Source: a virus (taxonomy: Duplodnaviria > Caudoviricetes). From it: a stretch of DNA of 64,000 nt. Position numbers and translations under genes: made by a program. The stretch is taken from positions 161,080-225,079 of the IMG/VR virus record IMGVR_UViG_3300031857_023573. One strand, given 5' to 3'. Below, in pieces: positions 16,429 through 17,827 of this stretch (positions within the stretch are counted from its first letter, which is position 1; every line of letters begins with the position of its first letter). The notes under the pieces were generated by a model that was given only the letters and a program-made list of their open reading frames with translations, had not been told where the DNA came from and did not search any database.

Positions 16429-17288
16429 ATTTTAAGTAAAATTTTTAAATCATAATCGTTAATATTTGGCAAATCTGCCTTCCATGGCCAAATTACGTCT
16501 TCATAGTCAAGTTCAGATAGAAGTGAAGGCATAACTTCTTCAAATCGAGTAGTTAATTCTTTTCCATCAATCTGATTATCATAATAAGCACTTATTCCGA
16601 TATAAATTCCTGGTCTATAAAGTTCAAGTGAATTTTCTAAGTTATATTTCTGTTTATCATCTAGAAATCTACTAAGAGCTGATTGTGAGATTTTATCAAT
16701 CTCTTCAATTTTAAATTTAATCTTAGATATATTTTTCATAGACCACTTTGGTGAAGTTACATATACTTCATCATATGTTGTTCTTGATAGAAAAGTTCCT
16801 GATCTGGCACCTGCACTTGGTCCTTGTGCAATAAAAAGAGTTGATGAGAGTAAGCCTACCAAAAAATGTGAAATTAAAGACAGTTTCTCTGAGTTATCAA
16901 TATTTTTACAGGTTATTAATCCGTTATATCTTCGTAATATATTCGACACATGAATGTCAACGTCAGCATATAGTGTACAAAGTGTCACAAATTTTGATTC
17001 CACAAATAGATATTCATCAAATATATCTAATAATTTATCCTTTATAAAATCTAAATCGACATTTCCTAAACTTTGAACCAATTTTGTAAAATGACTGTCT
17101 ATTTTACTCCACTCACCTTCTCCTAAAAAATGATTTACTTGGTTTTTTAGGTCTGACTCATTAATAGTCGAATTTAACATATATTTTTTGAGTGTATTAA
17201 ACCACTCATATATAGAACCAAACTCTGTATCAGTTCTATCTTGCCACATATCTGACTCTAAGAATGAATTATATTTTTTTATTTTCAT
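16425..17288 (-). CDS. hypothetical protein with capsid-targeting-like N-terminus
   Basis: MKIKKYNSFLES; DLDFIKDKLLDIFDE segment. Confidence 0.65.
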   Translation of the reverse strand: MKIKKYNSFLESDMWQDRTDTEFGSIYEWFNTLKKYMLNSTINESDLKNQVNHFLGEGEWSKIDSHFTKLVQSLGNVDLDFIKDKLLDIFDEYLFVESKFVTLCTLYADVDIHVSNILRRYNGLITCKNIDNSEKLSLISHFLVGLLSSTLFIAQGPSAGARSGTFLSRTTYDEVYVTSPKWSMKNISKIKFKIEEIDKISQSALSRFLDDKQKYNLENSLELYRPGIYIGISAYYDNQIDGKELTTRFEEVMPSLLSELDYEDVIWPWKADLPNINDYDLKILLKM

Positions 17289-17827
17289 ATTTCTATGGTT
17301 AGATCTGTATTGTTCGGTCTAGTATAAATAACTTTATTTACATTATTAAAATTATACTTATAATTTGGATCACAATATTTCTTTCCACATCCTGGTTTAG
17401 TATAAGCAAGTGTTATATGTGGATTATATTCTGGATACTTATCACTATTTGGAATACTAGACTTTAACTTATTATGTAAGTTAAGTAGATTATCATTTCG
17501 ATCAACATTGAATTTTACAACATCATATTTAGGATTTTCAAAAAGGTCTATACCGTTAATATTCACTTCTAACTTATCTTTTAGAACTTCTCTTAAAATC
17601 GATTCTACTTCACTAACATCAACGACACTTGTCACTGGGTAAAGTAGAGTCAAATGTGGGTGTTCTTGAATGCCATAGTTGTCACCTTCAGTTTCTTGAT
17701 ATAAATCATCTGGATTTATTTGTGATGTCAAGTCTTTCCAATTTTCGACTGGTACATGAACCATCACACATCCGTGATCATATCCTTGTGACTCTAGAAA
17801 TTTTTCATATTTTAATAAAAACTTCAT
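17285..17827 (-). CDS. 2H phosphoesterase (T4 gp57B/Acb1-like) with capsid-targeting-like N-terminus
   Basis: two HxT motifs (HPHLTLLY, YNPHITLAY); N-terminus MKFLLKYEKFLES. Confidence 0.8.
   Translation of the reverse strand: MKFLLKYEKFLESQGYDHGCVMVHVPVENWKDLTSQINPDDLYQETEGDNYGIQEHPHLTLLYPVTSVVDVSEVESILREVLKDKLEVNINGIDLFENPKYDVVKFNVDRNDNLLNLHNKLKSSIPNSDKYPEYNPHITLAYTKPGCGKKYCDPNYKYNFNNVNKVIYTRPNNTDLTIEI

What the first reader, a model, noticed from the sequence alone, without database searches (positions are those of the whole stretch)
17285..17827. Acb1-like 2H phosphoesterase carrying the capsid-targeting peptide
Seen: two HxT motifs and the MKFLLKYEKFLE leader. Established: T4 gp57B (Acb1) is a 2H phosphoesterase that degrades CBASS cyclic nucleotide signals. 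Inference: a pre-packaged anti-defence enzyme that could destroy cyclic di/tri-nucleotides or cOA from the moment of injection, before any phage transcription. LigT-like RNA repair activity is an alternative.
Basis: inference. Interest (0 to 1): 0.72.

Follow-up and report, generated by a model that had tools for sequence, protein, structure and literature searches.

The report
Tagged 2H phosphoesterase in a megaphage
A giant phage of Bacteroidota encodes an intact 2H-type phosphodiesterase that carries a short N-terminal tag resembling the phage T4 signal for loading proteins into the capsid. The enzyme is not a clear Acb1, and an RNA-end repair role is at least as likely as destroying immune signals.

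Summary
The ORF is real: 17285-17827, minus strand, 180 aa, with two intact HxT motifs and the MKFLLKYEKFLES leader. It is a 2H phosphoesterase. Pfam 2_5_RNA_ligase2 scores 50 bits, the AF2 model has pLDDT 87.5, and Z is 10-13 to all 2H structures. It fails the Pfam Acb1 cut-off and lacks Acb1's Trp lid, and LigT, YjcG and Usb1 rank equal or higher.

The window is from a megaphage related to LR756502.1 and LR745206.1. The leader is a portable tag. It heads 10 of 72 window ORFs and about 150 of 925 in LR756502.1, against 17 in shuffled N-termini. It is unstructured in the model and absent from some homologues. Its conserved Y-x-x-F-[IL]-x-E matches the mapped targeting and processing residues of T4's capsid-targeting sequence.

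The relatives have T4-type head genes. Their scaffold holds ten YSEY[IL]AE repeats, and tagged genes share the head genes' upstream motif. Their CCA-adding enzyme and RNA ligase 1 carry the tag too, and a third of multidomain homologues are fused to CCA-adding enzymes.

Capsid loading is likely (about 0.55) but unproven. I favour RNA 2',3'-cyclic-phosphate ends as substrate over cyclic oligonucleotides.

This scan has already reported such tags in other megaphages.

The parts
17285..17827 (-). ORF of 180 aa: 13-residue leader plus a 2H phosphoesterase domain (about residues 16-180)
17789..17827 (-). Leader MKFLLKYEKFLES (codons 1-13). Y7 and F10 have the T4 CTS spacing. It ends F-L-E|S, one residue shorter than the canonical [IL]-x-E.
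   Evidence: Scores 14.5 bits under the leader PSSM. Residues 1-9 have pLDDT below 50. T4 comparison.
17648..17656 (-). First catalytic motif, H58-L-T60
   Evidence: Read from the sequence. H58 is invariant and T60 nearly invariant in the alignment.
17411..17419 (-). Second catalytic motif, H137-I-T139, inside Y131-P-E-Y134-N-P-H-I-T-L-A-Y. This is the only stretch that aligns with Acb1.
18367..18374 (-). AATATATA motif (within TTTAATATATAA) 33 nt upstream of the first gene of the four-gene operon. It is a putative late-type promoter element.
   Evidence: In LR756502.1 the same motif precedes the portal, protease-scaffold, capsid and terminase genes and 45 of 58 tagged genes.
17829..18341 (-). 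First gene of the operon (170 aa, untagged, no family match). Its stop lies 1 nt from the 2H start codon. Its C-terminal ESLPRQ..TV.QL domain is fused to a 2H domain in P0047.
16425..17288 (-). Tagged gene (MKIKKYNSFLES, 287 aa) that overlaps the 2H stop codon (ATGA). It is syntenic in three relatives.
15823..16425 (-). Tagged gene (MIIKKFNLFESE, 200 aa), last in the operon and just upstream of gp32
14795..15760 (-). gp32-type ssDNA-binding protein, used as the synteny anchor; untagged
19987..20484 (-). Another tagged ORF (MKHLYKFKKFNE)
27440..28675 (+). Another tagged ORF (MYKFKEFLIEKS), preceded by AATATATA
34640..35197 (-). Another tagged ORF (MQVKKFSDFLNEN, 15.0 bits)
56670..58243 (+). Two tagged paralogues (MRYLKRFDEELN, MKHLKKFEELN)
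   Evidence: Their homologues flank the tagged CCA-adding enzyme in LR756502.1 (one search list).

Best explanation
The gene encodes a catalytically intact 2H phosphodiesterase, a metal-independent enzyme with an HxT/HxT active site. It belongs to a large, mainly phage and metagenomic family that lies between the LigT/ThpR RNA 2',3'-cyclic phosphodiesterases and Acb1. The enzyme is joined to a 13-residue portable N-terminal leader. In this lineage of T4-related megaphages the same leader heads roughly 15% of all ORFs. It most likely works like the T4 capsid-targeting sequence. In that model the Y-x-x-F core docks the protein onto the scaffolding core of the prohead, whose own protein carries ten similar YSEY[IL]AE repeats. 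The prohead protease may then cut after the Glu. The enzyme would stay in the head and enter the next host with the DNA. The gene sits in a late-type operon, which fits this model. As substrate I favour RNA ends bearing a 2',3'-cyclic phosphate left by host tRNA- or mRNA-cleaving defence nucleases. The enzyme would then act together with the similarly tagged CCA-adding enzyme and RNA ligase 1 of these phages. My odds: it is a 2H enzyme, 0.97; the leader is a portable protein-level tag, 0.9; the tag's destination is the capsid, 0.55. For the substrate: RNA >p ends 0.45, cyclic oligonucleotide signals 0.35, other 0.2. Shown here: the fold, the motifs, the portability and statistics of the tag, the T4-like head genes and scaffold repeats in relatives, the promoter-motif association, and the fusions. 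Inferred: docking, cleavage, packaging, injection and substrate.
For: Enzyme: Pfam 2_5_RNA_ligase2 scores 50 bits. H58, H137 and T139 are invariant, and T60 nearly invariant, in 80 homologues. The AF2 model has pLDDT 87.5. VIA Z is 10-13 over about 130-160 residues to every 2H structure class.

The tag is portable. It is unstructured in the model (residues 1-9 below pLDDT 50). It is absent from the Maribacter phage Molly homologue and from other homologues that begin at strand 1. In fusions whose 2H domain is internal, it stays at the extreme N-terminus (P0027). The pattern Y-x-x-F-[ILMVF]-x-E occurs in the first 20 aa of 36 of 107 homologues with an N-terminal 2H domain, against 2 of 2733 internal windows. 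A PSSM trained only on 2H-family leaders finds 33 unrelated LR756502.1 ORFs at 10 bits or more at the N-terminus (3.6%), against 0.08% of internal windows and 0.2% of shuffled N-termini.

Selection acts on the protein. Synonymous codons in leaders follow genome usage, and positions with identical residues share a codon 0.60 of the time against 0.50 expected.

Likeness to T4: the real T4 IPII and IPIII N-termini (MKTYQEFIAEA) score 11.2 bits in that PSSM. In T4, CTS residues 4 and 7 were mapped to targeting and residues 8 and 10 to processing (PMC9026906). These are the four most conserved leader positions.

Head machinery: LR756502.1 has a T4-type portal (196 bits), a gp23-type capsid protein (96 bits) and a weak gp21-type protease match in a 699-aa protease-scaffold ORF. 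That ORF and its LR745206.1 counterpart contain ten 14-residue repeats, NIxYSEY[IL]AENLDK. The ORF has 24 [ILMFV]-x-E-[SNAG] sites against 6.8 +/- 2.4 expected. Ten of the 14 proteome-wide matches to Y.E[FY][IL].E lie in these repeats, and two more lie in N-terminal leaders.

Timing: AATATATA lies upstream of 45 of 58 tagged genes against 75 of 307 others (p = 2e-14). It also precedes the portal, protease-scaffold, capsid and terminase genes, and this operon.

Substrate: 15 of 46 multidomain homologues carry a CCA-adding (PolyA_pol) domain, directly adjacent to the 2H domain in P0045 and P0110. Others carry an RNase T exonuclease or polyvalent-protein domains, including a portal. The CCA-adding enzymes and Rnl1 ligases of both related megaphages carry the tag.
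Against: No virion proteome, N-terminal sequence or activity exists for any member of this family.

This protein's own leader ends F-L-E rather than the [IL]-x-E that T4 gp21 cuts, so cleavage is doubtful even if targeting holds.

The window holds no head genes, so the scaffold and protease evidence comes from relatives that are 72-75% identical in DNA.

The scaffold repeats score only 1.3-7.4 bits in the leader PSSM, and the pattern that links them to the leader was chosen after seeing them.

About 135 tagged proteins per genome is far more cargo species than any known phage packs. The tagged set includes ordinary cytoplasmic enzymes: PPK2, a methyltransferase and DeoC.

The AATATATA motif is called 'late' only because it precedes head genes.

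For the substrate: many relatives pass the Pfam Acb1 cut-off. The [FY]-P-x-Y-x-P-H-I-T-L-x-Y stretch is shared with Acb1 and not with LigT. No Tpt1 gene was found for a Trl1-type repair pathway. The window already has a separate RNA-repair-type 2H enzyme (2H-SAK).
Confidence: 0.5

Rival explanations
1. The tagged enzyme is a pre-packaged Acb1-type nuclease that opens cyclic di- or tri-nucleotide (CBASS) or cyclic oligoadenylate (type III CRISPR) signals from the moment of injection.
For: The HxT/HxT tetrad is intact. The stretch around the second HxT, YPEYNPHITLAY, closely matches Acb1's YPDYRPHITLSY and includes an aromatic residue at the position of the base-stacking F107. 24 of 37 multidomain relatives hit Pfam Acb1 at E < 1e-4, and several exceed its cut-off. 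Phage 2H enzymes of several structural groups cleave such messengers (bioRxiv 2025.08.21.671373). Iyer et al. 2017 predicted that 2H domains of virion-delivered polyvalent proteins counter nucleotide signalling (PMC5512222).
Against: The window protein is below the Acb1 cut-off (23.7 against 27). By sequence register, Y12 of Acb1 corresponds to a near-invariant Cys. There is no C-terminal Trp lid. Acb1 ranks below LigT, Usb1 and CPDase in sequence-profile and fold comparisons, and it is absent from the top 30 Swiss-Prot fold matches. The commonest fusion partner is a tRNA CCA-adding enzyme. Two of the seven assayed structural groups of viral 2H enzymes had no activity on any messenger tested.
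Confidence: 0.3
2. The leader is a genuine protein-level tag, but its destination is not the capsid. It could be a handle for the phage's own chaperones (DnaK and DnaJ are encoded in this window) or protease (ClpP is encoded elsewhere in the genome). It could also be an assembly or localisation signal inside the infected cell. The enzyme would then act in the cytoplasm late in infection.
For: About 15% of ORFs carry the tag, including housekeeping-type enzymes (PPK2, DeoC, a methyltransferase, a CCA-adding enzyme, Rnl1) that are not obvious cargo. This protein's own leader lacks the canonical [IL]-x-E. A DnaK homologue (29055-30935) and a DnaJ homologue (24334-25386) lie in the window, judged from their N-terminal sequences.
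Against: This reading does not explain the match to the four functionally mapped CTS residues of T4. It does not explain the similar repeats in the scaffold protein. It does not explain the shared upstream motif with head genes. No test here points to a specific alternative receptor.
Confidence: 0.3
3. The N-terminal segment is part of the enzyme. [quoted passage not shown]
For: N-terminal lids of about 15 residues exist in those 2H enzymes and are poorly predicted by structure models. VIA alignments to 9q2g and 9ciw extend into residues 1-6 of the model. The segment has low pLDDT.
Against: The same peptide heads more than 100 unrelated proteins, including a CCA-adding enzyme and an RNA ligase. 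Leaderless homologues exist. In fusions the leader stays at the protein's N-terminus, far from the 2H domain.
Confidence: 0.07
4. The shared N-termini are a by-product of nucleotide-level constraints. These could be A+T-rich, unstructured translation starts in a host without Shine-Dalgarno use, or a recombination cassette. On this reading there is no protein signal.
For: The genome is 32% G+C. N-terminal codons are slightly richer in AAA and TTA.
Against: Shuffling the same N-terminal residues abolishes the pattern (17 against 152; 0.2% against 3.6%). Synonymous codons vary at genome-like frequencies for Leu, Ser, Phe, Tyr, Asn and Ile. Substitutions are conservative at the protein level (K/R, Y/F, I/L).
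Confidence: 0.03

Closest known systems
Phage T4 capsid-targeting sequence (CTS) of internal proteins IPII and IPIII (MKTYQEFIAE), removed by prohead protease gp21
   Same: The location is the extreme N-terminus and the length is about 10-13 residues. The spacing is Y-x-x-F-[IL]-x-E, and the conserved residues are those mapped in T4 to targeting (4, 7) and processing (8, 10). The peptide is attached to unrelated proteins. The relatives have T4-type portal, capsid and protease genes.
   Different: T4 tags three or four small basic proteins, whereas these megaphages tag about 135 ORFs, including enzymes. Several leader variants exist (MKHLKKYNES, MKYLKKYKIFES, MIKKYxxFIxES). This protein's variant ends F-L-E rather than I-x-E. 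Nothing has been shown experimentally.
Acb1 (T4 gp57B, Erwinia phage FBB1; PF23474), the anti-CBASS 2H nuclease
   Same: It shares the 2H fold and the HxT/HxT tetrad. The aromatic-P-x-Y-x-P-H-I-T-L-x-Y stretch before and at the second motif is closely similar. It is phage-encoded.
   Different: It is below the Pfam cut-off (23.7 against 27). Only 29 columns align with T4 gp57B. There is no C-terminal Trp lid. Cys stands at the Y12 position. It is about 30 residues longer. Z is 11.3, against 12.5-13.3 for LigT, CPDase and Usb1.
LigT/ThpR and archaeal 2'-5' RNA ligase-like RNA 2',3'-cyclic phosphodiesterases (PF13563, PF02834, TIGR02258; PDB 2fyh, 1vdx, 5ldi)
   Same: These are the best sequence-profile matches in the PDB (E = 4e-6, spanning both HxT motifs). 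Z is 12.5-12.8. Pfam 2_5_RNA_ligase2 is above its cut-off.
   Different: It fails the TIGR02258 equivalog cut-off (34.3 against 65.7). The family has its own signatures: Y-x-Y-G-C-V-M in strand 1 and K-x-G-x-G-K-K-Y after the second HxT.
2H domains of phage polyvalent proteins and jumbo-phage RNA-repair sets (Iyer et al. 2017, PMC5512222; Iyer et al. 2021, PMC7824862)
   Same: Close homologues of this domain sit in giant multidomain proteins with ART-PolyVal, DUF5661, RES, Mom, NUDIX and portal domains, and next to CCA-adding enzymes. Those papers propose delivery with the DNA and roles against RNA damage or nucleotide signals.
   Different: Here the domain is a separate small protein, and delivery would depend on a short leader rather than on fusion to a virion protein.

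Membership tests
2H phosphoesterase superfamily | Two H-x-T/S motifs | tested here: met
   The motifs are H58-L-T60 and H137-I-T139. H58, H137 and T139 are invariant, and T60 nearly invariant, in 80 homologues.
2H phosphoesterase superfamily | Two-lobed alpha+beta fold with the HxT motifs facing a central cleft | tested here: met
   The AF2 model has pLDDT 87.5. VIA Z is 10-13.3, rmsd 2.7-3.5 A, over 131-158 residues to Usb1, CPDase, LigT, AKAP18, viral PDEs and Acb1.
2H phosphoesterase superfamily | Curated profile above its threshold | tested here: met
   PF13563 scores 50.0 against 27, and PF02834 scores 31.7 against 23.3.
Acb1 (PF23474) | Pfam gathering threshold | tested here: not met
   The score is 23.7 bits against 27, and only residues 83-144 match. 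Some relatives pass (30-37 bits).
Acb1 (PF23474) | C-terminal lid carrying W147 that closes over the cyclic nucleotide (Hobbs et al. 2022) | tested here: not met
   The C-terminus NKVIYTRPNNTDLTIEI has no Trp and is modelled as beta-strands with pLDDT 80-98.
Acb1 (PF23474) | Aromatic base-stacking residues Y12, W74 and F107 | tested here: inconclusive
   By sequence register only: F107 corresponds to Y131 and W74 to the invariant F96, both aromatic. Y12 corresponds to the near-invariant C20. No coordinate superposition was possible.
Acb1 (PF23474) | Cleavage of 3'3'-cGAMP, cA3 and related signals | not testable with these tools
   Needs a biochemical assay.
ThpR/LigT RNA 2',3'-cyclic phosphodiesterase (TIGR02258 equivalog) | NCBIfam equivalog cut-off | tested here: not met
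   The score is 34.3 bits against 65.7.
T4-type capsid-targeting sequence | About 10 residues at the extreme N-terminus, separable from the mature protein | tested here: met
   The leader is residues 1-13, before strand 1. It has low pLDDT, leaderless homologues exist, and the same peptide heads unrelated proteins.
T4-type capsid-targeting sequence | Aromatic residues at the two targeting positions (T4 Y4 and F7, spaced i, i+3) | tested here: met
   Y7 and F10 are present here. These are the family PSSM positions with the highest information. T4 IPII and IPIII score 11.2 bits.
T4-type capsid-targeting sequence | Processing motif L/I-x-E followed by a small residue | tested here: not met
   This protein has F10-L11-E12|S13. 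Orthologues have the canonical form: FIKE|S in L001, FMKE|S in L002 and FINE|S in P0013.
T4-type capsid-targeting sequence | Genome encodes a gp21-type prohead protease and a scaffolding core | tested here: inconclusive
   The window has no head module. Relatives LR756502.1 and LR745206.1 have a protease-scaffold ORF (Peptidase_S77 at 20-23 bits, below the cut-off of 27) between a T4-type portal and a capsid gene.
T4-type capsid-targeting sequence | Protein present, processed, in virions and ejected into the host | not testable with these tools
   No cultured relative or proteome was found.

The most novel reading that the evidence does not exclude
T4-related megaphages have expanded the capsid-targeting principle from a handful of internal proteins to more than a hundred. 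The leader imitates one repeat unit of the phage's own scaffold protein. It loads, among others, a ready-made RNA-repair and anti-signalling kit into the head: this 2H phosphodiesterase, a CCA-adding enzyme and RNA ligase 1. Host tRNA-cleaving or nucleotide-signalling defences would then be countered before any phage gene is expressed.
Probability: 0.3. Interest if true: 0.85.

Novelty: new variant of a known kind. Interest (0 to 1): 0.62.

Why it matters
If the tag does load proteins into the head, megaphage virions carry an injected proteome an order of magnitude more diverse than any described. This enzyme would then be one of the first examples of a pre-packaged RNA-repair or signal-degrading activity. 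That would change how the first minutes of megaphage infection, and their escape from abortive-infection systems, are understood. The short tag would also be a ready tool for loading foreign proteins into large capsids.

Two further points matter on their own. The 2H family is large (3,793 clusters at 50% identity), has not been assayed, and straddles the Acb1/LigT boundary. Its frequent fusion to CCA-adding enzymes suggests a tRNA 3'-end repair module that replaces the HD domain of bacterial CCA-adding enzymes.

Tried and rejected
It was not run by any other route, so docking is untested.

2. The T4 gp23 cleavage site (LTE|A) aligns in the LR756502.1 capsid protein with a stretch that lacks Glu. 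An I-N-E|N site lies upstream at residue 43. This was too ambiguous to use.

3. The leader PSSM gives most scaffold repeats only 1.3-1.8 bits, and two repeats 7.4 bits. The link therefore rests on a pattern chosen after seeing the repeats.

4. Fold comparison could not separate Acb1-like from LigT-like; all 2H classes fall within Z 10-13.3.

5. No Tpt1 (2'-phosphotransferase) gene was found in either related megaphage, so a full fungal-type Trl1 pathway is not supported.

6. The window itself has no CCA-adding enzyme or Rnl1 (tblastn).

7. No whole genome is held for the window.

8. The literature search found no paper holding both 'capsid targeting' and 'megaphage'. It found none on the BCSR5 enzyme under that name, and no accessible virion proteome of Tenacibaculum phage PTm1.

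9. The phage G Acb1 homologue was not detected in that phage's virion proteome. It is a different family and phage, so this is only weakly relevant.

10. The window leader matches the ClpX N-terminal motif 2 (M-basic-3 hydrophobic-x5-hydrophobic, recalled from memory), but the general leader does not. I treated this as coincidence.
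Full report
OBSERVATION. Its ATG lies one base after the stop of the upstream gene, and its stop overlaps the next start (ATGA). It is therefore the second gene of a tightly packed four-gene operon (18341 down to 15823) that ends just upstream of a gp32-type ssDNA-binding protein. The two HxT motifs are H58-L-T60 and H137-I-T139.

SOURCE OF THE WINDOW. The window is 32% G+C. Its nearest relatives are uncultivated phage genomes of 635-642 kb, LR745206.1 and LR756502.1. The gp32 region is 72-75% identical in DNA, and the block [170-aa gene]-[2H]-[tagged genes]-gp32 is syntenic. The same order recurs on a 46-kb metagenomic contig. No whole genome is held for the window. I therefore fetched all of LR756502.1 and used it as the genome-scale stand-in.

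THE ENZYME. Pfam places the protein in the 2H superfamily: 2_5_RNA_ligase2 scores 50 bits against a cut-off of 27, and LigT_PEase scores 31.7 against 23.3. The Acb1 model scores 23.7, below its cut-off of 27, and covers only residues 83-144. PHROGs gives 'RNA ligase' phrog_755. NCBIfam's ThpR equivalog scores 34.3 against 65.7.

An exhaustive search finds 3,793 clusters (50% identity level) at E <= 1e-3 and 1,274 at E <= 1e-10, so this is a large family. In an alignment of 80 members, H58, F96, H137 and T139 are invariant. The family also has its own signatures: Y-x-Y-G-C-V-M in strand 1 and K-x-G-x-G-K-K-Y after the second HxT.

The AlphaFold model built on that alignment is confident (pLDDT 87.5, pTM 0.83), except for residues 1-9, which are below 50. 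Fold searches return only 2H proteins but do not discriminate among them. VIA Z scores are: Usb1 13.3, plant CPDase 13.0, archaeal LigT-like 12.8, E. coli LigT 12.5, AKAP18 12.4, penguinpox cGAMP PDE 11.7, Burkholderia phage BCSR5 PDE 11.7 and FBB1 Acb1 11.3. Among reviewed proteins the top fold matches are YjcG-type, Usb1 and ThpR, and T4 Acb1 is not in the first 30. Among viral models the nearest are flavobacterial-phage '2'-5' RNA ligase' proteins.

IS IT ACB1? A family profile searched against PDB sequences hits archaeal LigT-like proteins across both motifs (E = 4e-6). Acb1 of FBB1 matches only around the second motif (E = 4.6e-4), and the BCSR5 enzyme matches at E = 2.4e-3. Profile alignment with the real T4 gp57B sequence covers 29 columns. 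That stretch, YPEYNPHITLAY against Acb1's YPDYRPHITLSY or FDDYTPHITLSY, is a genuine shared feature that LigT lacks. It places an aromatic residue where Acb1's base-stacking F107 sits.

Other Acb1 hallmarks from Hobbs et al. 2022 (PMC9117128) are missing. There is no C-terminal lid with a Trp, and the strand-1 position of Y12 is a nearly invariant Cys by sequence register. Several relatives do pass the Acb1 cut-off. My conclusion is that this is an Acb1-adjacent but distinct 2H family. Membership of Acb1 is not met for this protein, although an Acb1-like activity is not excluded. Doherty et al. (bioRxiv 2025.08.21.671373) show that viral 2H enzymes fall into structural groups with very different substrate ranges. 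Two of those groups were inactive on all 18 messengers tested, so the fold alone cannot assign a substrate.

THE LEADER IS A PORTABLE TAG. Most single-domain family members begin with M-x-[IK]-K-[KS]-Y-x-x-F-[IL]-x-E-S just before strand 1. A motif sampler run on 86 such N-termini gives the core [K]-[YF]-x-[EQK]-F-[IL]-x-E, starting at residue 4-6. The strict pattern occurs in the first 20 residues of 36 of 107 members with an N-terminal 2H domain, against 2 of 2733 internal windows.

The leader is not part of the fold. It is unstructured in the model. Members such as the Maribacter phage Molly protein start directly at strand 1. When another domain precedes the 2H domain, the leader stays at the protein's N-terminus (P0027).

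The leader is not specific to 2H proteins either. The PSSM trained only on 2H leaders picks out 33 unrelated ORFs of LR756502.1 at 10 bits or more (3.6%), against 0.08% of internal windows and 0.2% of shuffled N-termini. A looser pattern that also catches the short variants (MKHLKKYNES, MKYLKKYKIFES) matches 152 of 925 ORFs, against 17.1 +/- 3.8 after shuffling and 9 in internal segments. In the window it matches 10 of 72 ORFs, against 1.3 +/- 1.1.

Conservation is at the protein level. Leu, Ser, Phe, Tyr, Asn and Ile codons within leaders follow genome usage. Positions with identical residues share a codon 0.60 of the time against 0.50 expected. This disposes of a nucleotide-level or purely compositional explanation.

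LIKENESS TO THE T4 CAPSID-TARGETING SEQUENCE. I read the T4 genes directly. IPII and IPIII begin MKTYQEFIAEA, and this peptide scores 11.2 bits in the 2H-leader PSSM, at the usual N-terminal offset. The review of Black's work (PMC9026906) states three things. The first ten residues of IPIII suffice for head incorporation. Targeting depends mainly on residues 4 and 7 (Y, F). Processing depends on residues 8 and 10 (I, E), with gp21 cutting after L/I-x-E. These four residues, with the same spacing, are the four most informative positions of the megaphage leader.

The window protein keeps Y7 and F10, but its end is F-L-E|S, one residue short of the canonical form found in its orthologues (FIKE|S, FMKE|S, FINE|S). 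Targeting is therefore plausible for this protein, but cleavage is uncertain. In T4, an Asp at position 10 blocks processing yet still allows packaging.

EVIDENCE BEARING ON THE DESTINATION. First, LR756502.1 has a T4-type head module in T4 order. The portal is at 222545-224260 (PF07230, 196 bits). A 699-aa ORF at 225272-227371 has an N-terminus that weakly matches the gp21 protease family (22.7 bits, below the cut-off). A gp23-type capsid protein lies at 227452-229167 (96 bits).

Second, the C-terminal half of that 699-aa ORF, and of its LR745206.1 counterpart, consists of ten 14-residue repeats, NIxYSEY[IL]AENLDK. The ORF has 24 [ILMFV]-x-E-[SNAG] sites against 6.8 +/- 2.4 expected. Of 14 proteome-wide matches to Y.E[FY][IL].E, the core of the T4 CTS, ten are in these repeats and two are in N-terminal leaders. 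T4 gp22 likewise begins MLKEQLIAEA. This suggests that the leader imitates a scaffold repeat, co-assembles with the core, and shares its cleavage site. The caveats are that the pattern was chosen after seeing the repeats, and that the leader PSSM scores them only 1.3-7.4 bits.

Third, genes with more than 40 nt of upstream spacer carry AATATATA within 80 nt in 45 of 58 tagged cases against 75 of 307 untagged cases (odds ratio 10.7, p = 2e-14). The same motif precedes the portal, protease-scaffold, capsid and terminase genes. The Bacteroidota-type TAnnTTTG element is about half as frequent before tagged genes (6 of 58 against 62 of 307). The window operon has TTTAATATATAA 33 nt upstream of its first ATG. 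Calling this motif 'late' is an inference from its company.

WHAT THE ENZYME PROBABLY ACTS ON. Two kinds of association point to RNA ends. The first is domain fusion. Of 46 multidomain relatives examined, 15 contain a CCA-adding (PolyA_pol head plus RNA-binding) module. In P0045 and P0110 this module lies immediately N-terminal to the 2H domain. Others carry an RNase T-type exonuclease, as does the LR745206.1 orthologue, or belong to polyvalent proteins with ART-PolyVal, RES, Mom, NUDIX, DUF5661 and even a portal domain. From established knowledge, the E. coli CCA-adding enzyme carries an HD domain with 2',3'-cyclic phosphodiesterase and phosphatase activity (Yakunin et al. 2004). A 2H domain in that position would be a natural substitute for healing tRNA 3' ends cut by metal-independent RNases.

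The second association is the shared tag. Among recognisable enzymes that carry the tag in the related megaphages are the CCA-adding enzyme (MIITKYAKFLES and MILKKYKMFLES, almost the window leader) and a T4 Rnl1-type RNA ligase (MKKLHRYNSFIKES and MKLFKYIEFINEN). A DHH phosphoesterase, PPK2, a methyltransferase and DeoC also carry it. T4 Rnl1 with Pnkp is the classical counter to the PrrC anticodon nuclease (established knowledge). Iyer et al. 2021 assign jumbo-phage 2H enzymes and CCA-adding enzymes to RNA repair (PMC7824862).

Several points weigh against too firm a choice. Iyer et al. 2017 argued that polyvalent-protein 2H domains more likely act as RNases or degrade signalling nucleotides (PMC5512222). 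No Tpt1 gene is present. The window has a second, untagged 2H enzyme of the RNA-repair 'Swiss Army Knife' type at 58281-59024, which could mean the two have different jobs. I put RNA >p ends at 0.45, cyclic oligonucleotides at 0.35 and other substrates at 0.2.

RIVALS FOR THE TAG. One rival is an N-terminal substrate lid, as in PDE-9 and the penguinpox enzyme. This cannot explain a peptide shared by more than 100 unrelated proteins. A second rival is a different destination, such as a chaperone, a protease or an intracellular assembly. This stays open because the tagged set is very large and includes ordinary metabolic enzymes. I give it 0.3, against 0.55 for capsid loading.

NOVELTY. The 2H fold, Acb1, RNA-repair 2H enzymes in jumbo phages and the T4 CTS are all known. 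I found no paper describing CTS-like leaders in megaphages. This scan has already reported such leaders on at least eight other megaphage windows and once elsewhere in this genome. Those are unverified AI notes that I treated as leads only.

This report adds the following points. The tagged 2H family is characterised and shown not to be a clear Acb1. The leader maps onto the functionally defined T4 CTS residues. The scaffold repeats resemble the tag. The tag is associated with a promoter motif shared with head genes. The RNA-repair enzymes are co-tagged and fused to the 2H domain.

Noticed in passing
window 58281-59024 (+): This is a second, untagged 2H phosphoesterase of the RNA-repair 'Swiss Army Knife' type (Pfam 2H-SAK, 75.8 bits). 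It lies downstream of two tagged paralogues (56670-58243). In LR756502.1 the slot after the homologous pair holds the tagged CCA-adding enzyme instead.
   Followed up: partly
LR756502.1 225272-227371 (part in L003); LR745206.1 counterpart in L004: The protease-scaffold fusion ORF has ten tandem 14-residue repeats, NIxYSEY[IL]AENLDK. Each contains a T4-CTS-like core and an [IL]-A-E|[NS] candidate cleavage site.
   Followed up: partly
T4 genome, L039 13953-14411 (gene 57B) and 13592-13879 (ipI): T4 Acb1 (gp57B) begins MMEFKDFSTG, ahead of strand 1. This resembles the N-terminus MKTFKEFTST of internal protein IPI, encoded by the adjacent gene. I did not examine whether T4 Acb1 carries a degenerate capsid-targeting peptide.
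   Followed up: no
window 17829-18341 (-): The first gene of the operon has a conserved C-terminal domain (ESLPRQ.TV.QL.K.RK ... GIESYEDFEK.NK.F.P.WNLKHL) with no family match. The same domain is fused N-terminally to a 2H domain in P0047 and sits behind a tagged N-terminal part in L001 1031-1666, which suggests a functional link to the 2H enzyme.
   Followed up: no
L001 3995-5311 (LR745206.1): The orthologue of the 2H gene is fused to a C-terminal DEDD (RNase T / DnaQ-like) exonuclease domain (438 aa). Similar fusions of 420-476 aa are common in metagenomes (P0015, P0020, P0022, P0029, P0033).
   Followed up: partly
LR756502.1 genome-wide; window 18367-18374: There are two classes of upstream motif. 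[T]AATATATA lies 12-38 nt before the ATG of head genes and most tagged genes. TAnnTTTG (often TATATTTGTA) is the Bacteroidota sigma-A -7 type and is about half as frequent before tagged genes.
   Followed up: partly
LR756502.1 10-42 kb and 418-426 kb: These regions hold long tandem arrays of small tagged genes (MKHLKKYNES / MKYLKKYKIFES). They recall the hypervariable internal-protein loci of T-even phages.
   Followed up: no
window 29055-30935 (-) and 24334-25386 (-): The phage encodes DnaK-like and DnaJ-like chaperones. This is judged from their N-terminal sequences only and was not checked against profiles.
   Followed up: no
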